IMG/VR virus record: IMGVR_UViG_3300032136_000007 | Coordinates: 1-53,030 of that record | Origin: a virus | Taxonomy: Duplodnaviria; Caudoviricetes | Strand: one strand, 5' to 3' | DNA: 53,030 bases | The notes under the pieces: model-generated | Seen by the model: only the letters and a program-made list of their open reading frames with translations | Databases searched by the model: none | What the model was told of the DNA's origin: nothing | In this document: positions 8,852-51,377 of the stretch, piece after piece | Layout: each line of letters begins with the position of its first letter | Position numbering within the stretch: the first letter of the stretch is position 1 | Program-made: the position numbers and the translations under genes

Positions 8852-9259
8852 ATGTCCTATGTGACGATCCGTAGTGCGACTGGCGACAACCGGGTCGTGC
8901 TGTGGGAACGAGATCCGAAACATCCAGGTGGCGAGGTGTTCGTAGCTGGTGACAATCCTGTGGCCGTGTGCCTAACGGCTGCGGTGACTGATCGTATCCG
9001 GGACGGCTTGCTGGACGTGGTGGAAGTCGGAACGAGAGTGGACGCTGAGCCTGGGCCGGTGAAGGTCGAGCCGGTCCAGGCCGCCCCCCTGCTGAACGAT
9101 GTGGTGCCGGAGAAATGGCTTGACCTGCTGGCCGGCATCAACATCCACACCCTGTTCGATCTGGCCGACGCCGATCCTGACCTGCTGGTCGGCATTAAGG
9201 GGATTGGACCCAAAACCGCCGCCACCTGGATTGCTGACGCTCAGCATCTGCTGAATTAA
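8852..9259 (+). CDS. Helix-hairpin-helix domain protein
   Basis: C-terminal LADADPDLLVGIKGIGPKTA HhH motif; AGGAGG RBS. Confidence 0.75.
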   Translation: MSYVTIRSATGDNRVVLWERDPKHPGGEVFVAGDNPVAVCLTAAVTDRIRDGLLDVVEVGTRVDAEPGPVKVEPVQAAPLLNDVVPEKWLDLLAGINIHTLFDLADADPDLLVGIKGIGPKTAATWIADAQHLLN

Positions 9260-9281: not shown

Positions 9282-9875
9282 ATGAAACTCAACAAGCAGA
9301 TCCATGCCGGACTGATGCTGGGCGTCATCCTGGTCCTGGCTCTGGCCGTGGGGCTGGCTGGCTGCTCTGCCGTGCCGGGCGAACCCGTGCATGTGGTCAT
9401 CGACAACGCCAGCGAGATTGGCGGTGTTGTTTTCGACCAGCCTGTCACCGTGCAGGACGAGGACGGGACCAGGGCGGCTTTGCAGAGTAACGCCAACGAG
9501 ACCGGATTCGGAGATTTGCAGGTCGCCGGCTACCTGGACGTGCGAGACACGCTCTATGTGGGCGACTGGACACACATATTCGCTCAGACGGCCATCAGCG
9601 TAACCGATGGGGCTGTCATCACGCCAACGGGCACCTACCAGCCCCTGACCAGCGCAGGCAGCGTTACGGCTACCTTGACGACCAGCTCGGACTACGTGAC
9701 TGCCGGGGATCTGCTGGTGCTGATCAACGCCAATGATACTGTGACTTCGACCGTGAATATCGTGGACAGTGGTACGGCCAAGCTGACGGCGGCTGCGGCC
9801 CTGGGCCAGTATGACAGCCTGACGCTGTGGTTCGACGGGACGAACTGGATCGAATTGAGCCGGGCCGATAACTAG
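9282..9875 (+). CDS. Putative lipoprotein with a beta-rich, head-fibre-like domain
   Basis: Basic N-terminus, hydrophobic stretch and LAGC lipobox; C-terminal DSLTLWFDGTNWIELSR. Confidence 0.6.
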   Translation: MKLNKQIHAGLMLGVILVLALAVGLAGCSAVPGEPVHVVIDNASEIGGVVFDQPVTVQDEDGTRAALQSNANETGFGDLQVAGYLDVRDTLYVGDWTHIFAQTAISVTDGAVITPTGTYQPLTSAGSVTATLTTSSDYVTAGDLLVLINANDTVTSTVNIVDSGTAKLTAAAALGQYDSLTLWFDGTNWIELSRADN

Positions 9876-10812: not shown

Positions 10813-11217
10813 ATGTTGTTCTATCCGATGCACCCCTACCTGAATACCTGTGATGTCTTTGTCTACGGAGTCAGCAGCAAGCCCCTGGTCTACGGCCAGG
10901 GCTACGACGTGACGGACGAACGCATCATCCAGGCCTTGAGTCAAGATCCAAACTGGTCCCACACCCCCCCTCCCCACGAGCACGAGGTGGCTGCAGATTC
11001 GACAACAGTCCAGGACCGAATGAAGGATTTCCAGCAGATCAAGGGGATCGGCCCTCAGCGAGCAATGGCATTCAACGAGCTGAATATCTTCACCCTGCAA
11101 GATTTGGCGGACTACGACGCTCACACCCTGGCCCGGTTGCTAGACGGAAGCAGTCTATCCCAGGTGGTTCACTGGCAGGAACGGGCTATGAATCTGATTA
11201 TTGAGATTGGAGAATAA
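10813..11217 (+). CDS. Helix-hairpin-helix domain protein (DUF4332-like)
   Basis: DFQQIKGIGPQRA...IFTLQDLA HhH motif; GAGGTG RBS. Confidence 0.7.
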   Translation: MLFYPMHPYLNTCDVFVYGVSSKPLVYGQGYDVTDERIIQALSQDPNWSHTPPPHEHEVAADSTTVQDRMKDFQQIKGIGPQRAMAFNELNIFTLQDLADYDAHTLARLLDGSSLSQVVHWQERAMNLIIEIGE

Positions 11218-17475: not shown

Positions 17476-20400
17476 CCGACATCACTGTAGCCAGCGTAAT
17501 CGGCTACGCCGCCGTTGCTGAGACATCAGAGGTTCAGATTGCTTCGGTCGTCGGGTACGCTTCACTAGGACAGGCGACAGATGTAACCGTAGCATCGGCG
17601 ATCGGGTATGCCTCTATATTGCAGCCTTCATTTGTGGAGATTGCAGCGGTGATCGGGTATGCCTCGATTGTCCTGCCATCGGGCGGGGCGTTTGTACTTG
17701 GAGACGTAACCACGGAAACAGGTAGGGCAGGGACTGCTGCTGCGCATGGGGGACGAGTCATGCCAAGCGGCGCGGCAGTGACGCCTACTCCTACTCCTCT
17801 GACTACTCCCCAACTTCCCCAGCCAGGTCTGGACTTGTCGGGCCGGGCCGGGCTGACACAGATGCGTCTGTTTGTGGGTCCGCCCTGGCGCCGAAGTAAT
17901 GAGTCTGAGTTTTGGGATTTTAGCGGGTTGGACTTGACGGCCTACAGTCCCGCGGTCGGCAGCACGGTGGCCAGCAACGTCGGGTCATCTGACGCGTCTG
18001 TGACCGTGACAGATGCCACGGGCTGGCCGTTGACCGGTGGCGTGTGGCTGGGGCCGGGGGCGACAGGCGAGTCGTGGGCCTACGCCACCTACACCGGGCG
18101 GAGCGGCAACGTCTTGACCGGGCTGAGTCGGGATACCGTGGATGCGGAATACAGCGGCGAACACACAGCCGGGGCGGAAGCGCACTTCTGGTATCCACTC
18201 ACTATGGACGATGGCCGGTTCACCTACCGGGAAAGCATGGACCAGCGTGTGGCCACGTCCACCTGGTCCATGGACCTATCCGGCGTCAACTGTCCCGTGG
18301 GCGTGTTGCGGGCCGGGCATCTGGTTTTGGTCCAGATTCGGGAGATAAGTGGGGCGGGCTGGGGCAGTTGGACAACGTGGGCTATCGGCTGGCTCACGGG
18401 GGCGAACCCCACCGACGATGAAACCAAGACCCGAAGATGGACAGCTGGGGTGGGGGCATTGGACGCAGTAGCATTGCAAGCCAATGTCATCGGCCTGCAC
18501 GTAGGCGAGCGGGACGCTGCTGACGAGGGCAGTGCCTCGGCCAGTGGCACCCTGTCCCCAGTCTACAAAGCCATCGGGGACGGAACGGGAGAAGTGGACA
18601 GCGAAAACGACGTGGTCACGCCGGGCCGGGCCATTGACAGCAGCTTGACGACCGACTGGCACAGCGGGCGGTACTACGGCGAGGACAATCCTCTGCCCAG
18701 CCCTGGAGCCAGCGCCATTGACGGAGTGCGAGACGATGCTGCAATCACACAGGTGCATATCAACCCTTACACCGGCCAGGGCGACGGCTACAGGTGGGTG
18801 GAGATCACATGGATTAGCGATCTTTCTGGCGACTTTTGGCTTATTGCTGGCATTGATTACATGGTGCGCTTTGAGGATGGGTACGGGGCGGGCAAGCTAG
18901 ACTTCGGCTCGGGGGATCGGATAATCCTGGCCGAAAACCCGGACTTATTCAGCTCCGAAAACCCGGAGAACGAGGCCGCCGCGGTGCTGGACTTGGCCGA
19001 CTGGTCTGTCTGGCTGATGAACAATCAGAAGTACAGCGTGACCACAGGGGCCACAGGCGGCACGTTCACGCTCACCGTGGACGGGCAGACCACATCAGCG
19101 ATTGCCTATAACGCTACAGCCGCCACGGTGCAGAGTGCCTTGGCGGGGCTATCCAGCGTGGGGACCGACAACGTGCGGGTGGAGGGCAACGCCGGGGCCT
19201 GGGGCGTGACCTTCGTCAACGACCTGGGCCGTGAGTATGGGCCGGGCATGACCGGCGATGGGGCCGGACTCTCCGGGGGCACGCTTTCAGTCACTCAGAC
19301 ACAATCCCCAGCATTCCCCTGGGATACAGGGGCTGACGGTACGACGATTTTTGACCACGCGTCCGCTTCAGGTGGCATGTTGCGTCTGTTTCATGGCCCG
19401 ACCGGTACAGGGCACAGTCAAGTCGTATGGGGAACCACTGACCCCATGACGGCATGGTCCCCAACCTGGACAGGCAGTGCATTATCCGCACCGGGAGCGG
19501 GCGAAACCATGAGGATGCTGTTTTCGCCGTCCAGCCCTACGGTCACAGCAGACTTTTGGCAAGTGGGCCGGATCGCCACACCGGGCTATGCCGTCGAAGC
19601 GGCGGACAGTGCCTGGCTACTGATAGACCTGCCGACAATGGGCCTGAAACTGGCCGGAGACATCACGGACAGCAGCCCAGGGGCCGGGGACGCCTTAAGC
19701 ATCGAGAACGCAGCTGGGGCGAGCGCCGAGGGATTGCCGGCGAGCGGGACCATCCAAGTCGGAAACGAGCAGATCACCTACTCAGGGAGAGACTTTGACG
19801 CTGGGACTGTGACCGTCTCAGCTCGTGGGGCCAACGGGACAGCCGCCGCCGCCCACTTCGCCGATGACCCGCTCTACTTTGTGGACGGCGCGGGCGTGGC
19901 CACCGACGCCTACCCCATCGAGACGGTGCGCCTGCGCCGATCAACCGGACTGGCCGTGCCAGAAGATTTCGTGATCCGGGTGTCAGCCTTGTCCAGCGCC
20001 AGGAACCCGGAACAGGCCAACTACACGGTGGACTATGGCACCCTGGCCACGGTCACGGGCAATGCACTAGAATCTTACAGTCTGGATTTATCGGCCACGA
20101 CTCCGCGTATTCGCTGGCTGCTGGTAGAAGTGACGGCCATGACGGACGCGCCCAGCCGGGTGCGGATTGGCGAGGTGGATGCCGTGGTTGATCCTGGCGT
20201 GCTGGCTACGGGGACCACGTTGGCAAGCGGGACCGTGGCCGACGCAGTGGACGCACTGCTAGACCAAGCTGGCTTGCCTTCCGGTGTCCTGGTAGACGCC
20301 GGAGACACGCTGGAGCCCGACCAGTACACGACAGCGGGTGGGTCACTTTGGTCAATTTTAGCAGATTTGGCGGACTTTGCTGGGGCAAGGATCCGCATCG

Positions 20401-20894
20401 GACGGGATAGCAAACTTCATGTGAGCAACGATCCCTTCTGGCAGGGGACGCCGACGCCGGACGGAGCATGGGGCCGGGGTCAAGTGCGGCATGTTTCAGC
20501 CACCCGTGCGCCAGCACAAGCCATCGGGCAGCTTGAGCTGACATGGCGTAGGCCGGACGACCCTGCAGAGTACACTGTCTTGCAGCCAAGCACACAAAGC
20601 CGGACAGGGCAGACCGTGCAGGTGGGGCCATACGTGTACGCTGACGAAAGCGCAGCCACGGTCGCAGCCCTCAAGCGGTTCTGGCAAGCCCGCCGCCCCT
20701 ACTCGACCGTCATGGAGTTGGCCTTTCCGGGTACCAGCCTGACCACGGGGCAGGTCTACACACTGACTTGGGATCTTTCCGGGCGAACGGAGATTCGGGA
20801 TTACATGCTGCTTGGGTTAAATCTTGAGTTTAAGGATTATGCTTGGGCGACGGTGGTCACAGGCATCCAGATCGAGCGGGAGGACGAACGCTGA
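17472..20894 (+). CDS. Large tail tip / baseplate hub protein
   Basis: About 1140 aa, G/T/A/S-rich; contains a GGTFTLTVDGQTTSAIAYNATAATVQSAL module typical of tail proteins; ATGA overlap with the upstream gene. Confidence 0.75.
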   Translation: MTDITVASVIGYAAVAETSEVQIASVVGYASLGQATDVTVASAIGYASILQPSFVEIAAVIGYASIVLPSGGAFVLGDVTTETGRAGTAAAHGGRVMPSGAAVTPTPTPLTTPQLPQPGLDLSGRAGLTQMRLFVGPPWRRSNESEFWDFSGLDLTAYSPAVGSTVASNVGSSDASVTVTDATGWPLTGGVWLGPGATGESWAYATYTGRSGNVLTGLSRDTVDAEYSGEHTAGAEAHFWYPLTMDDGRFTYRESMDQRVATSTWSMDLSGVNCPVGVLRAGHLVLVQIREISGAGWGSWTTWAIGWLTGANPTDDETKTRRWTAGVGALDAVALQANVIGLHVGERDAADEGSASASGTLSPVYKAIGDGTGEVDSENDVVTPGRAIDSSLTTDWHSGRYYGEDNPLPSPGASAIDGVRDDAAITQVHINPYTGQGDGYRWVEITWISDLSGDFWLIAGIDYMVRFEDGYGAGKLDFGSGDRIILAENPDLFSSENPENEAAAVLDLADWSVWLMNNQKYSVTTGATGGTFTLTVDGQTTSAIAYNATAATVQSALAGLSSVGTDNVRVEGNAGAWGVTFVNDLGREYGPGMTGDGAGLSGGTLSVTQTQSPAFPWDTGADGTTIFDHASASGGMLRLFHGPTGTGHSQVVWGTTDPMTAWSPTWTGSALSAPGAGETMRMLFSPSSPTVTADFWQVGRIATPGYAVEAADSAWLLIDLPTMGLKLAGDITDSSPGAGDALSIENAAGASAEGLPASGTIQVGNEQITYSGRDFDAGTVTVSARGANGTAAAAHFADDPLYFVDGAGVATDAYPIETVRLRRSTGLAVPEDFVIRVSALSSARNPEQANYTVDYGTLATVTGNALESYSLDLSATTPRIRWLLVEVTAMTDAPSRVRIGEVDAVVDPGVLATGTTLASGTVADAVDALLDQAGLPSGVLVDAGDTLEPDQYTTAGGSLWSILADLADFAGARIRIGRDSKLHVSNDPFWQGTPTPDGAWGRGQVRHVSATRAPAQAIGQLELTWRRPDDPAEYTVLQPSTQSRTGQTVQVGPYVYADESAATVAALKRFWQARRPYSTVMELAFPGTSLTTGQVYTLTWDLSGRTEIRDYMLLGLNLEFKDYAWATVVTGIQIEREDER

Positions 20895-22798
20895 TGCCGG
20901 GGCGACTGTATTACGCTACGCTCAACCAACAGATGAGCCGTCAACTGGCCGAGGCGATGGGCCGGGCCTTCGAGGGCAAGCGGCGCACGGTGTCGGGCGT
21001 CTACCTGGGCCGGGGTATGATCCAGGTAGACGGACAGCGCTACCCCTTCCGAAACGAATCCGGGGTGGATGTGGTGGCCGGGGACACAATCGCGGTCGTC
21101 AACGTGGGCCGGACGGCATCGGCTGAGTATGCGCCTGCTGCGGGGGCGGGCACAAGCGGGGTGTCCGGGGGGACATCTACTGGAAGCGCACAGGCCGTCC
21201 TAGCGGACCACGACCATGCTGCGGGCTATGGTTCGGGTGGCAATCTAACCGGATACGCTCAAGCCGAGCATGAACATGCCGAGTACATACCGGCTGACGG
21301 GAGCGGGGCCGGGGCGACTGATGCAGTCCAAGCGTTCGTCGAGGGGATCGAGGTCAACACAATCCAGGGGGCGGACGGCCAGCAGTACCTGCAGTTCAAG
21401 AACAGCACGGGGACGGTGGTCGCTACAATCGATCTGGTAAATGCCTGGCTGTCTTTGGGCGAGTGGCCACCCGGCCAGAAATTGCACTTTGGCGACGGCC
21501 ATTTCCTGCTGGAGAACGGGGACGTCATATTCAAGCAGCACACGCAATGGTTGGGTGACTGGGGTCACGACCACTACAACGGTCCGTTTCAGGATCCGAT
21601 TTTTACGTGGGGTCGCATCGTGGAAGGGGGCGACGGGGCACCCAACATGCGTTGCATCGTCACGGACAATAACCATCCAGACGAACACTGGTGCTTTGGG
21701 TTCGACACGGAGGGGATCGTCGCGAGTGTACGACGAGGGACTGATTTAGGTAGCCACTTCGAGGGCTTTCAGTCCGGGAACGAGTTCCCCACATTCCGGC
21801 TCAACGCATACCCGACCATGCGCCTCGAGATGGGGCCATCTGACGACAGCGGACCGCCTGACGTGGCCGTGGCCCGGCTGGGCGCTGGTCTGATTGGCTG
21901 GCTGACCGATGGCGTACCCAGGCTGTGGGCTGGGGCCGATGGAGAATTGTACATAGAGGAAGCCAGCGCCGCGCCAACAGCATCCCCAATGACGGGCGTT
22001 GTGATGTTCGTTGACCCCGCCGATGGAGAACTGAAATACCGGGGGCCGTCCGGTCTGGTCGATCTCAGCCAGGCCGGCGCGGGCGGCGGAGGCGGAGGGA
22101 CACCCGCCTACACTTTCTGGGACCCTGCGGCTCCACCAGCCAGCCCAGACACGGACGACGACGAATTTGCCGATGGCACCTTGACAGGATGGACGGAATG
22201 GGACCAGGGCAACCATACAGATGTGTCAGAAGGAAACGGGTTCCTCACACTCAAACAGACAAGTACCGGGGTGGCATGGGGCGGAGTCTTCAAGACGGCT
22301 CCGGCGCACACCGATTGGACTGCTACTACCAGATTGCGTTTGACAGCGCGAAAGGTCAATTACAATAGTGTTGGATTGGCGGTATTCCAGGCGGCGACCA
22401 CGGACCCATCTGGTAGCGATTTTTACTGGATTGGGTATTCGCTGGATTCTGGGGACCGACCGATCAAGGCGCAGCGTTGGAATGGCTATAATTCGTATGG
22501 TCAGGCGTATTTTGAGGACGGAGATTTCATGGGCGAAAGCGGCATATGGGTCCGCTTCCGTTATGAGTCAGCCGGATCCACGCTCTATTTTGAGTCAAGC
22601 GAAGATGGTATAGGCTGGAATAGATTGTACTCGTTGACTCCCGCTTGGGCTATTGCAGAGATCGGGCTGGTGATGCTCAATGAGAACACAGGCGCAGACG
22701 CTTACGCCCGATTCGATTTCTTCCGAGTAACAAACTCGGCGGATAACGGCCAGATCACTGCCGGGCGCATGGTCGAGTCTGGTCCGGCAGCGACTTAA
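20894..22798 (+). CDS. Tail fibre / receptor-binding protein
   Basis: His-rich HDHA/HEHA segments, poly-Gly linker, C-terminal lectin-like domain (DDEFADGTL...FESSEDGIGW...FDFFRV). Confidence 0.7.
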   Translation: MPGRLYYATLNQQMSRQLAEAMGRAFEGKRRTVSGVYLGRGMIQVDGQRYPFRNESGVDVVAGDTIAVVNVGRTASAEYAPAAGAGTSGVSGGTSTGSAQAVLADHDHAAGYGSGGNLTGYAQAEHEHAEYIPADGSGAGATDAVQAFVEGIEVNTIQGADGQQYLQFKNSTGTVVATIDLVNAWLSLGEWPPGQKLHFGDGHFLLENGDVIFKQHTQWLGDWGHDHYNGPFQDPIFTWGRIVEGGDGAPNMRCIVTDNNHPDEHWCFGFDTEGIVASVRRGTDLGSHFEGFQSGNEFPTFRLNAYPTMRLEMGPSDDSGPPDVAVARLGAGLIGWLTDGVPRLWAGADGELYIEEASAAPTASPMTGVVMFVDPADGELKYRGPSGLVDLSQAGAGGGGGGTPAYTFWDPAAPPASPDTDDDEFADGTLTGWTEWDQGNHTDVSEGNGFLTLKQTSTGVAWGGVFKTAPAHTDWTATTRLRLTARKVNYNSVGLAVFQAATTDPSGSDFYWIGYSLDSGDRPIKAQRWNGYNSYGQAYFEDGDFMGESGIWVRFRYESAGSTLYFESSEDGIGWNRLYSLTPAWAIAEIGLVMLNENTGADAYARFDFFRVTNSADNGQITAGRMVESGPAAT

Positions 22799-22847
22799 AT
22801 TGAAACCCCAAAACCTTATCAACCGGAGTACCACACAGGAGGGCATT

Positions 22848-23255
22848 ATGCCACAGGAAAAGACGTATGAGTTCAAGATGGCCGAGGGGGATTTCGAGTT
22901 CCTTTTCGATCACGCAGCGCAAGAGGCCAGCAAAGCCCAGTGGAGCAAGGACGAACTGGACGACATCCTCGCCACTCACGTCGCCGGGACTTCCGGCCTG
23001 TCAGCGAGCGTCAACTGGACGAACCTCACCCTCGGCATGGCGTGGAGCGGCGGAGCCAAACCCTTTGGGCTGGCTCTCTACCAAAGCAATATGTCGAACC
23101 TGATCGTGTTCGCCGCACGCGACTGCGCCGGTGACGGGGACTTGGAGGCGAAGCTGGAGCAGATCGCCGACATCTACGACGGGGCGACCAGTGGCCAAAG
23201 CACATCGGTCAACTGGACCGCGTCCCCGGTGACAGTCTCGGTCAACTGGACGTAG
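22848..23255 (+). CDS. Hypothetical protein with three SVNWT repeats
   Basis: AGGAGG RBS before ATG 22848; internal repeats. Confidence 0.7.
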   Translation: MPQEKTYEFKMAEGDFEFLFDHAAQEASKAQWSKDELDDILATHVAGTSGLSASVNWTNLTLGMAWSGGAKPFGLALYQSNMSNLIVFAARDCAGDGDLEAKLEQIADIYDGATSGQSTSVNWTASPVTVSVNWT

Positions 23256-23266: not shown

Positions 23267-23312
23267 ATACTACTCGTGCGGCACCCCTAGACGGGTGCCG
23301 CACGAGTAGTAT
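23267..23312. repeat. Perfect 20-bp inverted repeat
   Basis: ATACTACTCGTGCGGCACCC-CTAGAC-GGGTGCCGCACGAGTAGTAT. Confidence 0.95.
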
Positions 23313-23343: not shown

Positions 23344-23637
23344 ATGCAGCACAAACCTTTGGGCCTGGTCTGGTCATCCATCCTCGTCGTTATTCTCGTC
23401 TTCGCCGGTTGGCTGGATGACCAGTTTTTTCAGAGTGGTATCCGCGAATGGCTTCCGGGCTTCATCAACTCCGCCCAGACCGTCCTGGGCATCGTCGGCC
23501 TGGCTCTTGGGTTGGCCTACACGGTCTACATGGAGTTGCAGGATCAGAAGTTGCGGGACTTCGGGCCGGATCATGTTGGCACTCGTGCAGTTGGTGAGTC
23601 GATGGAGACAAAGCCACTATGGAAAAGAATACTGTGA
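23344..23637 (+). CDS. Holin-like protein with two TM segments
   Basis: 97 aa, two hydrophobic helices, charged C-terminus, located after the tail genes. Confidence 0.55.
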   Translation: MQHKPLGLVWSSILVVILVFAGWLDDQFFQSGIREWLPGFINSAQTVLGIVGLALGLAYTVYMELQDQKLRDFGPDHVGTRAVGESMETKPLWKRIL

Positions 23638-24026
23638 CTCGGCTGCTCATTGTGGAGGACGACCCACGTCAACGCTTCTTATACCGAAGGGTGTTGGGCG
23701 GCTGCTGTGACGAGATCGTTGAGGCGTCAGATGGGTTTGAGGCGCAGGAGCACGACTGGACCAAATTTGACGTTGTGCTGCTAGATTTGCTCATGCCCGG
23801 CATGGATGGAATGGCTACCCTAGCTTGGGCTGCGCAGACGTTCGGGGAAGACTTGCCGCCTGTCGTAATTTTTACCGCCCTGTCAAACGGCCCGCTGCGG
23901 GCCATCGCCAATTCGCTGCCACAAAACGTGACGATACAGCAAAAGGGGATGGGCAAGCGGGAAAGTGTGTTGAAGAATATCACGGAGACGGTTGTTGATG
24001 CAGTTGCTAATCATCGCACCTCGTAG
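23634..24026 (+). CDS. Stand-alone CheY-like response regulator receiver
   Basis: LLIVEDD acidic pocket, DVVLLDLLMPGMDG (phospho-Asp), PVVIFTA, terminal K; GTGA overlap with the upstream gene. Confidence 0.9.
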   Translation: MTRLLIVEDDPRQRFLYRRVLGGCCDEIVEASDGFEAQEHDWTKFDVVLLDLLMPGMDGMATLAWAAQTFGEDLPPVVIFTALSNGPLRAIANSLPQNVTIQQKGMGKRESVLKNITETVVDAVANHRTS

Positions 24027-24627
24027 CTCACTGGACGTTTTCGCAGAAGTTTTAGAGGCGGCAGGGGAAAGCAATAACATTCTGCATGGCAATGTAAGCA
24101 GCCGGGAGGCATTGGACCATGTAGCAAGCGGCCAATATGACCGAATATATTTTGCTGGCGATGGGGACAAAACTCGCCTCGTTTTCAGCGATGGCTTGCT
24201 AGACGGAGCACTGCTGGCTGATGCCGTGCGCCATGCCGGAACGATAGAGCTGGCTATTTTCAATTCGTGCGAGTCATTGGGTATGGCTCTAGCTGCGTAC
24301 ATGGCCGGAGCGTCTTACGTGATCGGCTGGCAAGATGAAGTTCAGGACAAAGCGGCCAGCACGTTCGGCAGTACGTTTTGGGCATCTTACAAGATGGGGT
24401 CGAAGATCCAGCGCGCCTACTGGACTGGACGCGAGGCGGTGATTCGCAACTACCCGGGTCAGCCAACGCCGATCCTGCTCAACGGGCAGGGTGTCCGATT
24501 TCGCCAGGAAGTGGCCGAATTGCGCCAACAGATCGACCGACTAATGAGCATGGTGAAAGCGTTGATCGTGGCTTTGGCCGTGACTCTAGCAATCGGTGCG
24601 GCTGATATTTTCTGGCTGCACTGGTAG
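23998..24627 (+). CDS. CHAT (caspase-like) domain protein with coiled coil and C-terminal TM; catalytic His apparently replaced
   Basis: YFAGDG (canonical HFxGHG), LAIFNSCES (canonical LNAC), AGASYVIG, VQDKAA..F...FW; C-terminal hydrophobic anchor. Confidence 0.7.
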   Translation: MQLLIIAPRSSLDVFAEVLEAAGESNNILHGNVSSREALDHVASGQYDRIYFAGDGDKTRLVFSDGLLDGALLADAVRHAGTIELAIFNSCESLGMALAAYMAGASYVIGWQDEVQDKAASTFGSTFWASYKMGSKIQRAYWTGREAVIRNYPGQPTPILLNGQGVRFRQEVAELRQQIDRLMSMVKALIVALAVTLAIGAADIFWLHW

Positions 24628-24733: not shown

Positions 24734-25699
24734 TCAAAGCGTGTTGTCATTGCTTGTTCCTTTCAATTGAGATTCAACAGTGCCGGGGTATTCATCCCAA
24801 GTTTTGCGATCCAGTATTCGTCCAGCCATTTTCTTTCCCACCCGTATCATCATCGTTGTGTCGCCGTGCAAGTCTCCTGCTTTGCCTGTCGCCCAGGGCC
24901 AGGACCAACTCTGATGTTCCATCATTCCCTGTGTGACGTGCGATGATACAATCCACTCGCCCCACTGCTTGAAGTGAAATGGAATCCCAGCAGCCACGCA
25001 TTGATCTCGGATAGAACGAACCCAATTCGGGTGCATGGGCCGGGCATTGTTGCCAGACTCACCGCCGACGATGACCCAGTGAATTAGCCTCCATTCTGGC
25101 AACGTCTTTATGATTTCGTTTGATTTCGTACTTGTCCACAATGCACCAGCTTCCTTCAAGTCAACTGGCCCCAGCAAAGGCTCCATGCTCAAGAACCGAA
25201 CGGCAGCCCGCACTTTCAGCAGGTGCGGAATGCGCTTCTCGGCTTGCTCCTGGTTCTCGACGCTGGTACCGATCCATACGTTGATCGGCAACCATTTCCC
25301 CCAGCGTTGCGAGATCATATCGTTCACATTTTCCGGTCGTTTGGTCAACAGCAACCAATCGAGATTGGGTGTCTGCTCGATCAGTGAAAATAGATCGTTG
25401 CGCCATTCTCCCAGGTCAGAACGTTGATCCAACTTGTCCTCCATCACATCGGCCAATGATGCACAGAAGACCCGATACCGCACCCCTTCCTCTTTGGCTC
25501 GTTTGTTCCACTGCAACGGCTTGCGCCAATTGGCGGCGCTGGTTCGGACCCTGGTCCCCTGCGGTCCCCATTGCACTTTGCCCCACCGTTTATCCATCAA
25601 GGTTTCGGCGTAGCAGTGCTGACAGCCAGGCGAGACCTTGGAGCATCCGACCCAGGGATTGAACGTGTGATCTGTCCATTCGATTTTGCTGTTTTCCAT
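24734..25699 (-). CDS. DUF5131 / phage Gp37-Gp68 family protein
   Basis: SKIEWTDHTFNPWVGCSKVSPGCQHCYA, LLLTKRP, RFLSMEPLLG, WVIVGGESG, FHFKQWG. Confidence 0.93.
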   Translation of the reverse strand: MENSKIEWTDHTFNPWVGCSKVSPGCQHCYAETLMDKRWGKVQWGPQGTRVRTSAANWRKPLQWNKRAKEEGVRYRVFCASLADVMEDKLDQRSDLGEWRNDLFSLIEQTPNLDWLLLTKRPENVNDMISQRWGKWLPINVWIGTSVENQEQAEKRIPHLLKVRAAVRFLSMEPLLGPVDLKEAGALWTSTKSNEIIKTLPEWRLIHWVIVGGESGNNARPMHPNWVRSIRDQCVAAGIPFHFKQWGEWIVSSHVTQGMMEHQSWSWPWATGKAGDLHGDTTMMIRVGKKMAGRILDRKTWDEYPGTVESQLKGTSNDNTL

Positions 25700-36274: not shown

Positions 36275-36549
36275 GCTGGACACTCGCTCAGCACGGCGGG
36301 CGACAGGTGGGCGGGCACGCCATTGCGCTCTTTGGGGACAAGACAAGTTTGGCCTTCCAGCCGCTCGTTGGTCCCATAGACAAACTCGAACGTGTGCATG
36401 TAGCACCACACGCCCCGGCCAGGGGTTTTGACGCCAGGTTTGCCACAGGCTGGGCAGACCTCAACCGGCTGCGTGTTCAGGTACAGATCCCCCGGTTTGT
36501 AGTTGCCGGGGATCTGGACGGTGATGGATGAAACCAGACTACCGCTCAC
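36271..36549 (-). CDS. Small zinc-finger-like protein
   Basis: CPACG...H...C; overlapping start/stop. Confidence 0.55.
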   Translation of the reverse strand: MSGSLVSSITVQIPGNYKPGDLYLNTQPVEVCPACGKPGVKTPGRGVWCYMHTFEFVYGTNERLEGQTCLVPKERNGVPAHLSPAVLSECPA

Positions 36550-37643
36550 GATTCACGCTCCTTGGCGATCTCTTTGCGAATGCCTGCCGTGAGTCGACCT
36601 ATCTCTTTGATGGTCAGCTGGGCGATGTCCTGGGTTGTGCCAGTGCTGATGCTATCCGCCAGTTTGCGCTGTTTTTCGGGCCAGCCATCCCCGTAGTGCT
36701 GCCGTCCGACCGTATTCAACTCGGCAAGCGCCTTTCCCTTGGGCGTGAGAACCGGTTGCGGGCTTGCTTCTGATTGTTCAGATTCTGGTTCCTCGGGATG
36801 GCTGTACGGATCGGGGGACAGAGGGTCGTAGGGCTCGCCGTTCTCATCGTAGAGTTGGGGAAGGGCGGGGCGGTCCATGTCCAGGGTGTCGCCCTCCCAC
36901 TCGTCTACGATTTCGCCGTCCTCTGTGACGGTGCGCCCATCCACCAGTAGGCGGTCACCGGGCAGTTGCAGCGCCCGCTGGCGCATACCGGCCAACTGTA
37001 GCCGGACCCACTGGGGATCCGGTTCGATGAACAGCAGCCACTTCTCGAAGCGACGACGTCCACCGTCATCGGTTGGGGTGCTGATCATCTTGGGGCGGCG
37101 GCTCAACACGAAGGGAACGCCTTGCAAGTTGCCACGTATGGCGTAGACGGCGTTGAGGTTGGCCGAAAGCTCCATGATGTCGTTGATGCTGCCGGTGAGG
37201 ACGGTCACATAGGCAAAGCGGCGCAGCTCGGGGATGATGATGGAGAGGCGTCCGATAGGTTTACATCCTGGCTCCTTGCGGGTGCGTTCCTTTTCCCCGG
37301 TGGCATAGGGACAGGGGTGAGGCTCGGTGCTGTAGGCGCCATTTGCTGTCATGTGGAGAGACATAGTTTCGCCGTCGCAGCGATGGACCAGACCTCCGGC
37401 TCGATACTCTTCTTGCCATGCCGGGAAGTTTTCGTCCGGGGTGGAGTAGGGCAGATAGCAGTTGATGCTCTGCGGTTGCGCGCCGTAGGCGTCTAGGAAG
37501 TCGGCGGCGGCTTGGGCGTCGTCGGTGTCGAACCGGAAGTAAGTCAGATCTTTGCCCGGCGACTTCTCGCCCTTGGGCGCACCCTTGCGCAGCGTGCCGA
37601 TGCGGGGAAAGCTGGCCTCGGTAGCCAGTCGTTTGATAGGCAT
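36546..37643 (-). CDS. Gp3-like / recombination directionality factor-like protein
   Basis: MPIK.L....FPRIG.LRKG...KDL.YFRF, HRCDGE, CP...CKP.GRL..IIPEL, T.SIN, L.GVPF.L.R pattern. Confidence 0.75.
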   Translation of the reverse strand: MPIKRLATEASFPRIGTLRKGAPKGEKSPGKDLTYFRFDTDDAQAAADFLDAYGAQPQSINCYLPYSTPDENFPAWQEEYRAGGLVHRCDGETMSLHMTANGAYSTEPHPCPYATGEKERTRKEPGCKPIGRLSIIIPELRRFAYVTVLTGSINDIMELSANLNAVYAIRGNLQGVPFVLSRRPKMISTPTDDGGRRRFEKWLLFIEPDPQWVRLQLAGMRQRALQLPGDRLLVDGRTVTEDGEIVDEWEGDTLDMDRPALPQLYDENGEPYDPLSPDPYSHPEEPESEQSEASPQPVLTPKGKALAELNTVGRQHYGDGWPEKQRKLADSISTGTTQDIAQLTIKEIGRLTAGIRKEIAKERES

Positions 37644-40509: not shown

Positions 40510-40873
40510 ACCGGGCGGCTACAAAGACGCCGGGCTAGTACGCACCTGCATAAAGACCAACAGTGAGATCCATCGCATGGTCAAGCTACAGATGGACGAG
40601 TATCCCACCGCACGCAGTCGGCAACTACTGGTGGCTGCTATGTCCTTATTGACCCATCAGCACGGATGGCTAAACAAAATGCTAGACGACATCACCATCA
40701 TGCCGGATGAGCCAATTCGAGTGAATGAGTTGCTGAACCAGATCAATCTTTGGCTACTGAATGCACGCCCTACCCCGAGGGCATTGGTCTACTTGAGTGG
40801 GACAGCCTTTGAACTGCGAACACAAGCTGAAGCCTTGCTCAGCCTGAAGACAATTCGAGGACAGCATGAGTGA
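40490..40873 (+). CDS. Hypothetical protein
   Basis: Overlaps both neighbours. Confidence 0.55.
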   Translation: MATYRPEPGGYKDAGLVRTCIKTNSEIHRMVKLQMDEYPTARSRQLLVAAMSLLTHQHGWLNKMLDDITIMPDEPIRVNELLNQINLWLLNARPTPRALVYLSGTAFELRTQAEALLSLKTIRGQHE

Positions 40874-42170
40874 CTTCATCCCGAACAGTACACAGATGCC
40901 CAATCTCTACCTGGACCGACTCCTGGCCTTGTTGAGCGGAAATGAGTGGAAGGTTGTCAGCTACATGGCTCGCCGCCTCTTTGGGTTCCAAAAGCGCCGG
41001 GATCGGATTTCCATTGGCCAGATATGCAATGGGGTGAAGAACCGCAAGACCGGCCAGCAACTGGACTACGGAACAGGTCTCAATAACGCCACGGTGCTGC
41101 GGGCCTTGGCCGAGTTGGAGACGTACGGGATCGCTCGTCAGTCCGCACCCGCAGATAAGGCAAAGAACATCGCTACGGAGTGGGAGCTGCAACTGAATAG
41201 CGACCAAGTGGATTGGGCCGGTCTGGAAGCACGACAGGAGGCGGGGAAAAAGAGGACCCGAAAGCGGACAAAAGCTGGACGAAAAGCGGCGAACGAAGGA
41301 CCTGGTCCATCCAATAGACCAGGGGCAAATGAAGAACCTGGTCTATCCAATAGACCAGGTCACCTGGTCCATCCAATAGACCAGGTTGATGCCAAACCTA
41401 GTCCATCCAATAGACCACCCCTGGTCCATCCAATAGACGGACAAAAGAAAGGGGAAACAAAGATAGATGGTGATGGTATATCCCAAGAAGAGAATCGCCC
41501 GTTTAATCCGCCAAAGATTCGGGGCAAGGCAGAACGGTATTCAGCGTTGCGAGCTGAGCCGGAGTTGAGAGATCGGGCACAAGTTGCGATGCAGCTGCTA
41601 GGCGTCACGCATTTTGGGAAGATGTTCTCCAAGCGGAAAGAGGCTACTGGACGCAAGATCTTGACCGATCAGGACTGGCAAGAGATCTTGGACTGGTGTG
41701 CTTACTACGAGGGCCGGGTTAGCACCGGGAAAATTCAGATGGATGATGTCGCTCGCCTCCTAGTTGCCAACATTCGAGACGCAGATCCGGTGCCGATTCA
41801 GCGAGAGGCAATACAGATGGCAAACGGCTGGGCCAATCATGTCAGACATGACAGTAATACAGACGGCATGATTCTGGACAATGAGGAAGATGTCGACGAT
41901 GTGGATGATGGGCAGTCGGAACAGGGGGGGATCTGGGGAGAGGCGATGCGGACGCTACGTAGGTCCATGACTCGCCATACATATGCCATCATTCGAGGGG
42001 CGACACTGGTGGAGCAGGGCGAAGGGCGATTGATCGTATCAGTGACAAGCCCAGAAGCGCTTCAGAAGCTGCACGCCATACGGCAGAATGTGGAGAGCGT
42101 TGTGTCACGTATTGCACAACAGCGCATGGATGTTGAGTTTCGAATTGGAGAGCATCGTGGGCAAGCATAG
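40866..42170 (+). CDS. Replication initiator (lambda O-like N-terminus, DnaA N-terminal-like C-terminus)
   Basis: PNSTQMPN.YLD.LL..LSG.EWKV..Y.AR..FGF.K..D.IS; internal iterons; C-terminal IWGEAM..LR..M....Y...I domain. Confidence 0.82.
   Translation: MSDFIPNSTQMPNLYLDRLLALLSGNEWKVVSYMARRLFGFQKRRDRISIGQICNGVKNRKTGQQLDYGTGLNNATVLRALAELETYGIARQSAPADKAKNIATEWELQLNSDQVDWAGLEARQEAGKKRTRKRTKAGRKAANEGPGPSNRPGANEEPGLSNRPGHLVHPIDQVDAKPSPSNRPPLVHPIDGQKKGETKIDGDGISQEENRPFNPPKIRGKAERYSALRAEPELRDRAQVAMQLLGVTHFGKMFSKRKEATGRKILTDQDWQEILDWCAYYEGRVSTGKIQMDDVARLLVANIRDADPVPIQREAIQMANGWANHVRHDSNTDGMILDNEEDVDDVDDGQSEQGGIWGEAMRTLRRSMTRHTYAIIRGATLVEQGEGRLIVSVTSPEALQKLHAIRQNVESVVSRIAQQRMDVEFRIGEHRGQA
41301..41438. 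repeat. Five palindromic iterons, putative replication origin
   Basis: CCT(G/A)GTC(C/T)ATCCAATAGAC at 41301, 41337, 41363, 41397 and 41420. Confidence 0.88.
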
Positions 42171-42639
42171 TTCAGGGTGGATCGCTCGCAAAGCCGGGCA
42201 GCAGTGGGAAGATGCATTGGAAGTCTATCATCAATGGCTAGGTGCCCAGGGCCTAGCCGTGGTCCACAAGACTGGTCCTCAGATTGTGTTCGTCAAGCAG
42301 CGGGGACAGGTGGGTCCCCGGGTGACGGGGCCGGGGCCAGCCGATTACGTGGGCGTGCTCAACTCCGGTGTGTTCGTGGGCTTTGAGGCCAAATCGACTA
42401 GCAGCACGTCGGGCTACTCTATCCCAGCCAAGGCCATGCACCAGCTGCATTGGCTCAATGACATTCGCTCCACGACTGGGGGCTGGGCCAAGGTCTTTTA
42501 CATCGTCCGCTATCGCAAGTTGGATGAAACCTGCATTCACCGAGTCCAGGACATCTTCCCCGGCTCTCGCATTCGCCGGCCCCAGGGGATACTCGTCCCG
42601 GACGGAATCAGTTGGCTAGATGTGCTGAATCGACTGTAG
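42157..42639 (+). CDS. RecU-like Holliday junction resolvase
   Basis: G..WE..L, AVVHK, ADYVG, GFEAKST, HQL..L. Confidence 0.8.
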   Translation: MGKHSSGWIARKAGQQWEDALEVYHQWLGAQGLAVVHKTGPQIVFVKQRGQVGPRVTGPGPADYVGVLNSGVFVGFEAKSTSSTSGYSIPAKAMHQLHWLNDIRSTTGGWAKVFYIVRYRKLDETCIHRVQDIFPGSRIRRPQGILVPDGISWLDVLNRL

Positions 42640-42677
42640 TTCTAAATTCTCTATTCACAGAAAGAAAGGGACCGATC

Positions 42678-43460
42678 ATGTATCACATTGCATTTGCCCT
42701 GTTGGGCGGGGGGACTGGGAAGAGCACCTCCGCCGTCAACGTGGGCCACGCTCTTGCCATGCAGGGCTTGCGTACCCTGATCGTGGACGCTGACCGACAG
42801 GGACAGTGCGCCGTGTTCCTGGGGCGCAACCCGGAGCCTGGGATCCACCAGTGGCTTGGCGGGAACCTCATGGGGCTCAAGGAGCCGTTGGAGAACATCG
42901 TGCGGCAGACGGGCCGGGGGCAATTGGACCTGCTGCCGGGCAGCCAGCAGACCGAAATGCTGCAACGCATGTTGGTGGCCTTCGATAGCCCTCCCCGCTG
43001 GCTCAAAGATCAGCTGGAGGCCGACCGGGAGTTCTTCGCCCATTATGACGTGGTGGTGTGGGACACGGCTCCCACGGGGCGGCTGCTGGACATGGTGCTG
43101 CATCTGGCTGACATCGCCGTGCTGCCGGTGCCGGCAGATCTCAAAGGTCAATCCAGCCTGGCCGACACGCTGGCCATCTTGCCGGCCAGCACAGAGCGCA
43201 TCGTCCTGCCGACACGGGTGCCCACTGCGCAGCGGGTGTCTACCGACTTTCTGCGGGGCTATCAGGTGGACTATCCAGGGACCATGTACACCGACGATGA
43301 GGGCAAGGCGCTCTATGTTCCGGAGCGGGCATCGGTGCGTACATCCCAGGCGTTGGGCCAGACCATTTTCGAGTATGGTCCCAACTCGGACGTGGCGGAG
43401 GTCTACCGGCGATTGGCCTACTATCTTGGCCTGCGGGCGTATCAGGCGGTGCGGGCATGA
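42678..43460 (+). CDS. parA: ParA-family ATPase
   Basis: GGGTGKSTSAVN, LIVDADRQG, LDLLPG, YDVVVWDTAP, IFEYGPNS. Confidence 0.88.
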   Translation: MYHIAFALLGGGTGKSTSAVNVGHALAMQGLRTLIVDADRQGQCAVFLGRNPEPGIHQWLGGNLMGLKEPLENIVRQTGRGQLDLLPGSQQTEMLQRMLVAFDSPPRWLKDQLEADREFFAHYDVVVWDTAPTGRLLDMVLHLADIAVLPVPADLKGQSSLADTLAILPASTERIVLPTRVPTAQRVSTDFLRGYQVDYPGTMYTDDEGKALYVPERASVRTSQALGQTIFEYGPNSDVAEVYRRLAYYLGLRAYQAVRA

Positions 43461-48003: not shown

Positions 48004-48259
48004 GTTTAGAGTCTTCTCAACTGAATACGCCTGACAGAAGCCAAGAGGCCGGGGCGCAAGCGGGAGACGATCATCGTCTTCGCTTGTGTCCTGGCCTTCG
48101 TTATTGAGGGTGCACGATGAAACCAGTAGACCCCTACACCCGGGCGGATGGCTGAAGTAAGTTCAGCGACCAACTGCCCTATCTGCTGGACGGTATGATT
48201 GATCGCATCCGCTCGGTTACCGAAGAACCGAGCGGTAAAGTTATAGAAGGGATTATTTG

Positions 48260-50981: not shown

Positions 50982-51377
50982 TTGTACATCATCACTAAGC
51001 AATTCCATTTCAGTGCGGCTCATGCGCTCTATGGGCTGCCTCCGGGACATCAATGTTCAGTCTTCTACCCGGATGGCCGAACAGGGCGCATCCACGGTCA
51101 TAACTATGTCGTGGAGGTGGAGTTATCTGCCGAGGTTGTGGATGCCCTGGGGTTTGTTGTGGACTATGGGGATCTAGCTCCGCTGAAGACCTACATTGAC
51201 CGAGAGCTCGATCACCAGAATCTGAACGAGGTTCTGCGGGCAAAGCTGCCGAATGGACAGACGAGCGCCGAGAATCTTGCTCGCCATTTGTTTGACTGGT
51301 GCCAGGATCGTTGGCCGCAGACCTCGGCGGTGCGGGTGAGCGAGACTCCCAAGACCTGGGCGGAGTATCGGCCATGA
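50982..51377 (+). CDS. queD: 6-carboxytetrahydropterin synthase QueD
   Basis: FSAAH, C...HGHNY, GFVVDYG, LDHQNLN, TSAENLA, VSETPKTWAEY; AGGAGG RBS with TTG start. Confidence 0.93.
   Translation: MYIITKQFHFSAAHALYGLPPGHQCSVFYPDGRTGRIHGHNYVVEVELSAEVVDALGFVVDYGDLAPLKTYIDRELDHQNLNEVLRAKLPNGQTSAENLARHLFDWCQDRWPQTSAVRVSETPKTWAEYRP

What the first reader, a model, noticed from the sequence alone, without database searches (positions are those of the whole stretch)
23344..24627. Lysis slot holds holin + CheY-like receiver + membrane-anchored caspase-like CHAT protein, and no endolysin
Seen: three overlapping, coupled genes end the late operon: a 2-TM protein, an intact stand-alone receiver (DD, phospho-D, T and K all present) and a CHAT-like domain with coiled coil and C-terminal TM. 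The CHAT Cys (NSC) is retained but the His motif reads FAGDG. No histidine kinase and no classical endolysin are visible in the near-complete genome. Inference: a possibly undescribed lysis-control or anti-defence system. The receiver could tap host kinase signalling to time lysis, and the pseudo-caspase could act as a second holin/antiholin or as a decoy against host CHAT/caspase immune proteases.
Basis: partly seen in the sequence, partly recalled or inferred. Interest (0 to 1): 0.85.

Follow-up and report, generated by a model that had tools for sequence, protein, structure and literature searches.

The report
Phage receiver plus membrane-anchored mini-caspase pair
An uncultivated phage carries a phospho-receiver gene coupled to a small caspase-like protein anchored in the membrane; the pair recurs in other phages and its job, perhaps in cell lysis or in phage-host conflict, is unknown.

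Summary
The sequence facts hold. Three overlapping + strand ORFs (23344-24627) encode a 97-aa 2-TM protein, a stand-alone receiver and a 209-aa CHAT domain with a coiled-coil stalk and a C-terminal TM helix.

- **Fold:** the caspase/CHAT fold is confirmed. The model has pLDDT 95 and its best PDB match is the SAVED-CHAT filament.
- **Active site:** the Cys is kept, but the catalytic His is Asp.
- **Family:** the CHAT-TM protein belongs to a large, apparently undescribed and mostly viral family of 200-250-aa tail-anchored mini-CHATs. The Cys is invariant in 134 of 134. His is present in 123 of 134 and was replaced by Asp several separate times.
- **Partners:** the receiver sits directly upstream in 6 of 13 related loci. 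The 2-TM ORF is an ORFan and is not part of the conserved unit.
- **Operon structure:** a unique 20-bp perfect hairpin separates the trio from the tail-fibre genes.
- **Endolysin and kinase:** none was found in this phage or in five other carriers.
- **Position:** the family sits at varied genome positions, as accessory (moron-like) genes do.

Best reading: a phospho-gated, membrane-tethered caspase-like accessory module of unknown target. A lysis role stays open but is unshown.

The parts
23267..23312 (+). Perfect 20-bp stem, 6-nt loop hairpin between the stop of the 151-aa ORF (23255) and the 2-TM start. It is terminator-like but has no clear U tract.
   Evidence: I3, 100% complementary. (dG -47.9 kcal/mol, z -8.37, 0 of 200 shuffles fold as well). 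(the stem sequence occurs only here).
23344..23637 (+). 97-aa protein with two hydrophobic helices. Holin-like in size and topology only. Lineage-specific ORFan.
   Evidence: hydropathy; C-terminal tail has net charge 0. (Phage_holin_10 E 0.028, below cut-off). (only itself found). SD-like GAAAGG upstream.
23619..24026 (+). Stand-alone receiver (CheY-like) domain, 135 aa. Phospho-acceptor Asp56 codon at 23784-23786. Overlaps the 2-TM ORF by 19 nt.
   Evidence: PF00072, E 2.5e-11. (D56 invariant in 8 of 8; ED pair, T/S86 and Lys conserved). (AF2 pLDDT 87.3, five strand-helix units).
23998..24627 (+). Mini-CHAT (caspase-like, clan CD) domain, residues ~1-165, followed by one long helix (164-208) that forms a stalk plus a C-terminal TM anchor. 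Overlaps the receiver gene by 29 nt.
   Evidence: PF12770 above cut-off. (8tl0_A, E 2.7e-16). (pLDDT 95, pTM 0.81). (8tl0, E 4e-10, TMq 0.67; then gingipain, caspases, craspase, DdvA, separase). (start at ATG 23998).
24160..24162 (+). Asp55 codon at the position of the catalytic His (family motif hFaGHG; here YFAGDG).
   Evidence: The column aligns to the His of 8tl0 'HFIGHG'. The dyad of that protein is H375/C422 (passages); the match to that numbering by spacing is my inference.
24268..24270 (+). Cys91 codon (NSCES), the catalytic-Cys position. Invariant in the family.
   Evidence: 134 of 134. (aligned to 'LNACCT' of 8tl0).
24553..24621 (+). C-terminal hydrophobic anchor (about residues 186-208). 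Only 2 residues follow it, so the CHAT domain should face the cytoplasm (inference).
20843..23255 (+). Upstream context: a 651-aa tail-fibre-like protein with a weak concanavalin-like C-terminus, and a 151-aa protein of no known family. This is the end of the structural gene block.
24734..25699 (-). Downstream convergent gene, DUF5131 family. It marks the switch to the leftward operon.
   Evidence: E 3.5e-89. (phrog_2045). (PADLOC candidates PDC-M41B / PDC-M30B).

Best explanation
**Committed reading.** The conserved unit is a two-gene phage accessory (moron-type) module: a receiver domain translationally coupled to a tail-anchored mini-CHAT.

**How it is built.** The caspase-like domain is held on the cytoplasmic face of the host membrane by a helical stalk and one C-terminal TM helix. 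Most family members keep the His-Cys dyad and are probably active membrane-tethered cysteine proteases.

**How it is controlled (inferred).** In the branch that includes this phage, the receiver is an intact phospho-acceptor with no phage kinase. It most likely gates the CHAT protein according to a host kinase or acetyl-phosphate.

**This phage's copy.** The catalytic His is Asp, so this copy probably works without canonical proteolysis, either by binding its target or with altered chemistry.

**Target and role.** The target is unknown. I read the module as a conflict or host-manipulation device acting at the inner membrane (superinfection exclusion, defence or counter-defence), rather than as the core lysis machinery.

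**Shown:** the folds, the motifs, the gene coupling, recurrence of the pair, the viral distribution and the varied positions.
**Inferred:** the topology, the phospho-gating, the target class and the role.
For: **Fold and residues.**
- establish the CHAT fold.
- The closest solved relative is the immune protease SAVED-CHAT (8tl0).
- The ESM Atlas structural neighbours are CHAT effectors fused to AAA_35, TIR, NACHT, nSTAND or EAD domains.

**Family.**
- 255 representatives at E<=1e-3.
- Nearly all of the first 70 checked carry a hydrophobic peak near the C-terminus.
- Cys is present in 134 of 134 and His in 123 of 134.
- The nearest Atlas clusters are 75-95% viral among the few members with a taxon.
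- No match in 185,579 species genomes with alignment A1.

**Pairing.**
- A receiver lies directly upstream and overlapping in L002-L006.
- A receiver-like ORF lies upstream in L017 (own receiver profile, E 8.4e-6).
- That makes 6 of 13 loci, spread over two CHAT subclades.

**Accessory-gene behaviour.** Positions vary:
- right after TerL (L007, L008);
- between head and tail genes (L009, L012);
- a 2-TM ORF, then CHAT-TM, then TerL (L010);
- between a dCTP-deaminase-like gene and a possible packaging block, with no Pfam family for its largest ORF (L006);
- between tail-fibre-like genes and a large serine recombinase (L017).

**Other support.**
- The unique hairpin decouples the trio from the structural genes.
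- Provirus record G001 also carries a CHAT-NACHT protein 3.8 kb away.
- The receiver residues and fold are intact.
- No HATPase_c was found.
Against: - No PADLOC model hits the pair. Five full-text searches found no description of it. The conflict role therefore rests on resemblance alone.
- In L007-L009 and L012 the gene overlaps or abuts structural or packaging genes on the same strand. This suggests late lytic expression rather than expression from a prophage.
- No endolysin family was found in any of 6 carrier records. That is what a lysis role would predict.
- The window module, L005 and L017 occupy the slot after the tail-fibre genes, where many temperate phages keep lysis genes (recalled knowledge).
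- Small 2-TM ORFs flank the CHAT-TM gene in 3 of 14 cases: the window, L010 and L013.
- No substrate, binding or topology result exists.
Confidence: 0.45

Rival explanations
1. **Lysis or lysis-timing module.** The 2-TM protein acts as a holin. The membrane-tethered CHAT protein, gated by the receiver, triggers, delays or replaces the endolysin step. It could do this by cleaving or binding an envelope-maintenance or holin-control protein at the inner membrane. This would apply to phage lineages that lack a classical endolysin.
For: - 13 informative peptidoglycan-hydrolase or peptidoglycan-binding Pfam families gave 0 hits in six frames of the window and five other carriers. CheckV completeness of the six records is 95, 86, 75, 62, 51 and 27%. 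The CHAT positive control rang in 5 of 5.
- Pfam on 56 window ORFs and PHROGs on 26 found no lysin.
- The module follows tail-fibre-like genes in the window, L005 and L017.
- A small 2-TM ORF abuts the CHAT-TM gene in the window, L010 and L013.
Against: - The 2-TM ORF is an ORFan. The three flanking 2-TM ORFs are unrelated to one another.
- There is no holin family hit above cut-off.
- 10 of 13 related loci have no adjacent small TM ORF.
- The L009 and L012 copies sit between head and tail genes, and the L007 and L008 copies sit after TerL.
- The predicted topology puts the CHAT domain in the cytoplasm, away from the cell wall.
- A strong hairpin precedes the trio.
- No matched set of phages without CHAT was searched, so the absence of lysins is not shown to be an association. 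Most ORFs in these divergent phages have no family at all.
Confidence: 0.25
2. **Host-physiology takeover.** This would be analogous to the cyanobacterial membrane CHAT protease HetF. The tethered CHAT acts on a host divisome or cell-envelope-synthesis protein to arrest division or remodel the envelope during infection. The receiver reads the host's signalling state.
For: - HetF is a CHAT protein with one TM segment. It localises to the division site and interacts with FtsI (passages). The abstract of PMC9457339 in the listing reports its protease activity on PatU3.
- The mini-CHAT has the same broad layout: a CHAT domain followed by one TM helix.
Against: - HetF did not appear among the sequence or fold hits, and its CHAT region is far larger (aa 1-555).
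- The nearest relatives of the phage protein are immune-type CHAT domains.
- No division-related gene is linked to the module.
Confidence: 0.12
3. **Decaying or neutral passenger in this phage.** The window copy lost its catalytic His and no longer has a selected function. The trio is a remnant.
For: - The catalytic His is Asp and the first His of the motif is Tyr.
- Non-His members have somewhat longer terminal branches: median 0.84 against 0.67, one-sided Mann-Whitney p 0.056.
Against: - All three frames are open with coupled starts.
- Cys is invariant even in non-His members.
- The replacement is Asp in 8 of 9 non-His members of the 75-sequence tree. Well-supported branches force at least 5 separate changes. 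This points to selection for Asp, not drift.
- The model is confident throughout.
- The receiver keeps every phospho-transfer residue.
Confidence: 0.1

Closest known systems
SAVED-CHAT protease of a type III-B CRISPR/CBASS hybrid (PDB 8tl0; bioRxiv 10.1101/2023.06.23.546230, passages read)
   Same: - It is the best sequence match (E 2.7e-16) and the best fold match (E 4e-10, TMq 0.67).
- The family motifs hFaGHG and NaC(x)S align to its HFIGHG and LNACCT. These correspond by spacing to the published dyad H375/C422, whose double mutant is inactive.
   Different: - SAVED-CHAT has an N-terminal cA3-sensing SAVED domain, is soluble and forms filaments.
- The phage protein has only the ~165-aa CHAT core plus a stalk and a TM anchor, and is viral.
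- The window copy has Asp at the His position.
[quoted passage not shown] 2020, PMC7159879, passages read)
   Same: - A small membrane protein gene lies 5' of a gene with an N-terminal caspase-superfamily domain.
- About a third of those caspase proteins carry TM helices.
- The authors predict that it acts at the membrane.
   Different: - EACC1 is a conserved single-TM domain. The window's 5' ORF has two TM helices, has no family and is not conserved.
- System 4 is described in bacterial genomes (actinobacteria, some proteobacteria) with variable C-terminal effector domains.
- Here the partner is a receiver and the carrier is a phage.
DdvA, a transmembrane anti-sigma factor with a TPR-CHAT domain (PDB 8rw5; PMC11506125, passages read)
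   Same: - A single-pass membrane protein with a CHAT domain, among the fold hits (rank 24).
- It is proposed to couple a signal to proteolysis at the membrane.
   Different: - In DdvA the TPR-CHAT is periplasmic, C-terminal and large, and the cytoplasmic end binds an ECF sigma factor.
- The phage protein has no TPR and no sigma partner, and its CHAT domain is N-terminal and predicted to be cytoplasmic.
HetF of Anabaena, a membrane CHAT protease (PMC8406250, passages read)
   Same: A CHAT domain followed by one TM segment, with membrane localisation.
   Different: - HetF is much larger (CHAT region aa 1-555, plus TPR), is cellular and is divisome-associated.
- No detectable specific relationship was found here.
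Canonical phage lysis cassette (holin, endolysin, spanin; recalled textbook knowledge)
   Same: - Small 2-TM ORF.
- Overlapping genes.
- Position after the tail-fibre genes.
   Different: - No endolysin and no holin family match.
- The 2-TM ORF is not conserved with the pair.
- A receiver and a caspase-like protein are not known lysis components. Two full-text searches found none described.

Membership tests
CHAT / clan CD caspase-like peptidases (PF12770) | Profile match above the curated cut-off | tested here: met
   30.8 bits against a cut-off of 24; six-frame match, E 1e-8, over the cut-off.
CHAT / clan CD caspase-like peptidases (PF12770) | Caspase-hemoglobinase fold | tested here: met
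   (pLDDT 95). (8tl0, gingipain, caspases, legumain, separase and craspase, all with probability 1.00).
CHAT / clan CD caspase-like peptidases (PF12770) | Catalytic Cys | tested here: met
   Cys91 in NSCES. The column is invariant in 134 of 134 and aligns to the 8tl0 Cys.
CHAT / clan CD caspase-like peptidases (PF12770) | Catalytic His | tested here: not met
   Asp55 (YFAGDG). The column is His in 123 of 134, Asp in 8, Gln in 1, Glu in 1 and a gap in 1. The window protein is therefore a fold member but not a canonical active-site member.
Response-regulator receiver (PF00072) | Profile match above the cut-off and a (beta-alpha)5 fold | tested here: met
   (44.2 bits against 30.2). (five strand-helix units, pLDDT 87.3).
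Response-regulator receiver (PF00072) | Phospho-acceptor Asp, acidic pair, Thr/Ser and Lys | tested here: met
   D56 invariant in 8 of 8; E13-D14, T86 (S in two relatives) and the Lys after beta5 are conserved. Their placement at the strand ends in the model is my reading.
Response-regulator receiver (PF00072) | Cognate histidine kinase or phosphodonor | tested here: not met
   No HATPase_c in six frames of the window or four other carriers. None in 56 ORFs. A host donor cannot be tested here.
Holin (class II-like) | Small protein with two TM helices | tested here: met
Holin (class II-like) | Membership of a described holin family | tested here: not met
   Phage_holin_10 at 14.9 bits against a cut-off of 27; no annotated PHROG; no homologue.
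Holin (class II-like) | Adjacent endolysin; PMF-dependent hole formation | tested here: not met
   No adjacent lysin. Hole formation cannot be tested with these tools.
EACC1-caspase 'System 4' (Kaur et al. 2020) | 5' gene encoding the conserved single-TM EACC1 domain | tested here: not met
   Pfam at E<=1 gave only four weak, unrelated hits for the 97-aa ORF. The ORF has two TM helices. That Pfam holds an EACC1 model is recalled, not checked.
EACC1-caspase 'System 4' (Kaur et al. 2020) | 3' gene with an N-terminal caspase domain, often with TM helices | tested here: met
Known anti-phage defence systems (PADLOC 2.0) | Match to any defence-protein model | tested here: not met
   nothing for the CHAT-TM protein or two homologues. 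Only chance-level hits for the 2-TM ORF (E 0.021) and the receiver (E 0.005).

The most novel reading that the evidence does not exclude
Some lineages of tailed phages that encode no recognisable peptidoglycan hydrolase may end infection with a caspase-like programme instead. A tail-anchored mini-CHAT protease at the inner membrane would kill or open the host cell. In one branch it would be gated by a phage receiver domain that eavesdrops on host two-component phosphorylation, which would make lysis timing responsive to host signalling. Asp-for-His variants such as this one would be dominant regulators (antiholin-like) or altered-chemistry forms.
Probability: 0.15. Interest if true: 0.9.

Novelty: new variant of a known kind. 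Interest (0 to 1): 0.62.

Why it matters
Caspase-like CHAT proteases are known as effectors of bacterial immunity (craspase, SAVED-CHAT, gasdermin-activating proteases). Here a stripped-down, membrane-anchored version turns out to be a sizeable family carried mainly by phages, and in several lineages it is wired to a phospho-receiver.

- **If it acts against host or rival-phage proteins,** it would be a protease-based counter-defence or exclusion device that can read host signalling.
- **If it acts in lysis,** it would be a new way for tailed phages to leave cells, in lineages where no endolysin can be found.
- **The recurrent His-to-Asp change with an invariant Cys** is a clean natural experiment on clan CD active-site chemistry or on the evolution of pseudo-enzymes.

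Tried and rejected
**Searches for relatives that found nothing**
- Close relatives in isolated phages. None by megablast of 10 kb. None by tblastn with three family members.
- TerL and the major capsid protein are under 30% identical to any isolate, so the host stays unknown.
- The window CHAT protein alone and alignment A1 found nothing in IMG/VR. A1 found nothing in the species genomes, and neither did TerL.
- Alignment A6 found nothing in IMG/VR.

**Checks that were negative**
- Fused receiver-CHAT forms: none among the 159 proteins fetched.
- tRNAs: none in the window or in record G001.
- Host genes at the ends of provirus G001 were looked at and gave no clear host assignment.
- Host domain: 17 of 29 gene starts have SD-like motifs within 20 nt, several of them AGGAGG. 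A lipobox lipoprotein is also present. This weakly favours a bacterial host, and I dropped the idea of an archaeal host.

**Complex prediction**
- The receiver with the CHAT soluble domain was sent to the complex predictor. The result was 'no answer' (score 0.01, mark 0.32). It is not evidence either way.

**Literature**
- Five full-text searches found no description of a phage receiver plus CHAT-TM module.
- One preprint notes an uncharacterised CHAT-domain gene in a B1 mycobacteriophage (passage).
- Supplementary files of papers were not consulted. The source data of Kaur et al. could list related architectures.
Full report
**What is there**

The window is a linear IMG/VR virus record of 53,030 bp, estimated 95% complete. 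Its first 23 kb hold a rightward structural block:
- GpA-type terminase;
- capsid protein;
- Phage_tail_S protein;
- a minor tail protein;
- a 1174-aa and a 651-aa tail-fibre-like protein.

The block is followed by three overlapping + strand ORFs and then by a convergent DUF5131 gene. The three ORFs are:

| ORF | Length | Nature |
|---|---|---|
| 23344-23637 | 97 aa | two hydrophobic helices |
| 23619-24026 | 135 aa | receiver |
| 23998-24627 | 209 aa | CHAT domain with C-terminal TM helix |

A TTG at 23992 would give 211 aa, but homologues align to the ATG. The overlaps are 19 and 29 nt.

**The CHAT protein**

Pfam CHAT is matched above its cut-off. A profile of 70 family members hits the CHAT domain of PDB 8tl0 at E 2.7e-16. 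The next hits (legumain, caspase-3) are at E>0.1.

The AlphaFold model, built from the 70-sequence alignment, has pLDDT 95 and pTM 0.81. It shows a compact alpha/beta domain to about residue 161, followed by one long helix at 164-208.

Foldseek against the PDB ranks the activated SAVED-CHAT filament first (E 4e-10, TMq 0.67). After it come gingipain, caspases, a C11 protease, craspase, legumain, the transmembrane anti-sigma factor DdvA, and separase.

The motif NSCES aligns to the Cys of 8tl0, and YFAGDG aligns to its HFIGHG. The published dyad of that enzyme is H375/C422, 47 residues apart, and the H375A/C422A double mutant is inactive (passages). The aligned residues are also 47 apart. The offset of 20 in numbering is my inference.

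**The family**

The exhaustive representative search found 255 proteins at E<=1e-3, 45 at <=1e-10 and 7 at <=1e-30. Most are 200-250 aa long. Of the first 70 checked, nearly all have their strongest hydrophobic stretch within the last ~30 residues.

I aligned the 134 fetched members of 180-320 aa. The 25 proteins outside that length range were left out. In this set:
- Cys is invariant, 134 of 134;
- the His column is His in 123, Asp in 8, Gln in 1, Glu in 1 and a gap in 1.

On a FastTree of the first 75 members by id, 9 are non-His (8 Asp, 1 Gln). The tree needs 9 changes, and well-supported branches force at least 5. The loss is therefore recurrent and almost always to Asp.

Non-His members have somewhat longer terminal branches: median 0.84 against 0.67, one-sided Mann-Whitney p 0.056. 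This is a trend only.

The ESM Atlas lists the nearest clusters (54-245 members, 63-91% carrying Pfam CHAT) as 75-95% viral among the few members with a taxon. Its structural neighbours from cells are CHAT domains fused to AAA_35, TIR, NACHT, nSTAND or EAD modules. In BFVD the two best matches are uncharacterised phage proteins, followed by giant-virus caspases.

No isolated phage record carries the family by tblastn. Alignment A1 found nothing in 185,579 species genomes.

**The receiver**

Pfam Response_reg scores E 2.5e-11. The big protein search found only three relatives besides the query itself.

In an alignment of 8 (the window, those three, and four translated from loci):
- Asp56 is invariant;
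- the acidic pair, the Thr/Ser at residue 86 and the Lys after strand 5 are conserved.

The model is a complete five-unit receiver fold with pLDDT 87.3. No kinase domain was found (Pfam scans).

**Is the trio a unit?**

Thirteen related loci were recovered. L002/L003 and L007/L008 are near-duplicates of each other.

A receiver gene lies directly upstream of, and overlapping, the CHAT-TM gene in L002-L006. In L017 a receiver-like ORF occupies the same place. My profile of the receiver family scores it at E 8.4e-6, though Pfam gives nothing at E<=0.001. That makes 6 of 13 loci, and L017 belongs to a different CHAT subclade. L017's CHAT is also an Asp variant (HFAGDS). The other 7 loci have no receiver.

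The 97-aa 2-TM ORF, by contrast, found only itself in the 5.8-billion-protein search. It is absent upstream of the receiver in L004, L005, L006 and L017. Small 2-TM ORFs abut the CHAT-TM gene in L010 (77 aa, upstream) and L013 (101 aa, downstream). The three show no similarity to one another, and none matches a holin family. The L010 ORF has a sub-threshold hit to a cyanobacterial 2-TM domain.

The conserved unit is therefore receiver plus CHAT-TM in one part of the family, and CHAT-TM alone elsewhere.

**Position and transcription**

Positions of the CHAT-TM gene vary:

| Locus | Position |
|---|---|
| L007, L008 | overlapping the end of TerL |
| L009, L012 | between head and tail genes, abutting (L012) or overlapping (L009) its neighbours |
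| L010 | 2-TM ORF, CHAT-TM, a small Cys-rich ORF, then TerL |
| L006 | between a dCTP-deaminase-like gene and a possible packaging block (no family found for its largest ORF) |
| L005 | after tail-fibre-like genes |
| L017 | between a tail-fibre-like gene and a convergent large serine recombinase |

In the window, a 20-bp perfect hairpin at 23267-23312 lies between the last structural ORF and the trio. Its dG is -47.9 kcal/mol with z -8.4. Apart from a 17-nt palindrome at 46099-46126, it is the only perfect inverted repeat of 16 nt or more in the 53 kb. It lacks a clear U tract, so whether it terminates, attenuates or stabilises transcripts is open.

Varied positions, patchy presence and a flanking hairpin are typical of accessory (moron) genes. 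That generalisation is established knowledge recalled from memory, not tested here. Provirus record G001 also carries a CHAT-NACHT protein on the opposite strand, 3.8 kb from its mini-CHAT.

**Endolysin**

- Pfam on 56 window ORFs and PHROGs on 26 gave no lysin.
- Six-frame searches used 15 families. Searches covered Amidase_2, Phage_lysozyme, GH25, SLT, Amidase_3, Peptidase_M15_4, GH19, PG_binding_1, NLPC_P60 and Peptidase_M23. Searches covered CHAP, GH108, VanY, Peptidase_M15_3 and Glucosaminidase.
- These gave 0 of 5 records each time. The first ten used G000-G004 and the last five used G000-G003 plus G005.
- For GH19 and GH108 the tool's controls rang nowhere, so those two show nothing.
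- The same method found CHAT in 5 of 5 records.

This is notable, but three things limit it. The records are 27-95% complete. These phages are so divergent that most ORFs match nothing. And no matched control set of phages was run.

**Reading**

Shown here:
- a caspase-fold domain with Cys but Asp for His;
- an intact receiver coupled to it;
- recurrence of the pair in other phages;
- a broad, mostly viral family of tail-anchored mini-CHATs;
- no detectable kinase or lysin.

Inferred:
- cytoplasmic orientation (no signal peptide, and only two residues beyond the anchor);
- phospho-gating by a host donor;
- action at the inner membrane.

I rank an accessory conflict or host-manipulation module first (0.45) and a lysis or lysis-timing role second (0.25). 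A HetF-like action on host division or envelope proteins gets 0.12, and decay gets 0.10.

The closest described arrangements are:
- the soluble immune protease SAVED-CHAT;
- the bacterial 'System 4' pair of EACC1 plus caspase-TM;
- the membrane CHAT proteins DdvA and HetF.

None has this architecture, a receiver partner or a viral home. Five full-text searches found no description of it. PADLOC has no model for it.

**Limits**

- The contig carrying P0010, the other close Asp variant (52.7 kb), could not be fetched.
- The host is unknown.
- Supplementary files of papers were not seen.

Noticed in passing
window 41299-41387: A cluster of imperfect inverted or repeated 25-26-nt units (AACCTGGTCTATCCAATAGACCAGGT type) lies inside the 434-aa ORF 40866-42170, which has a weak Phage_rep_O hit (E 0.0023). 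It looks like an iteron-type replication origin within the initiator gene.
   Followed up: no
window 49011-50120 and 51299-52066: A queuine tRNA-ribosyltransferase-like (DpdA-type) ORF (phrog_887, E 4e-25) and a weak radical-SAM ORF lie nearby. This hints at 7-deazaguanine modification of the phage DNA.
   Followed up: no
window 42612-43460, 48257-49063, 45675-47735: ParA-like ATPase, weak ParB_N and weak FtsK/SpoIIIE ORFs. No integrase was seen in the 56 ORFs scanned, although a Gp3-like recombination directionality factor is present (36546-37643). The phage may be maintained as a plasmid-like prophage.
   Followed up: no
window 9282-9875: A 197-aa ORF with a lipoprotein-type signal (…LAVGLAGC…) sits in the middle of the head gene block, right after the capsid gene and an HhH protein. 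It has no family apart from a weak phage-depolymerase C-terminal hit.
   Followed up: partly
window 24734-25699 (-): The DUF5131 gene convergent with the CHAT-TM gene matches two PADLOC candidate defence models, PDC-M41B and PDC-M30B, at E ~1e-57.
   Followed up: no
L009:3-2459 (-) = G001:C1 about 19947-22403: A large CHAT-NACHT (NLR-like) protein in an open frame of at least 1231 aa is encoded on the opposite strand inside the structural region of a provirus record. The same record also carries a mini-CHAT-TM 3.8 kb away.
   Followed up: partly
window 8852-9259 and 10813-11217: Two small helix-hairpin-helix (HHH_5) proteins are encoded within the head/connector gene block, which is unusual for structural modules.
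   Followed up: no
L002:1181-1483 (-) and L005:7008-7262 (-): A similar small ORF (MPG[IV]T[KR]SR…SARSHIARA…RRAR) lies convergent just downstream of the receiver+CHAT-TM pair in two loci, so it is a conserved neighbour. It has no Pfam family.
   Followed up: partly
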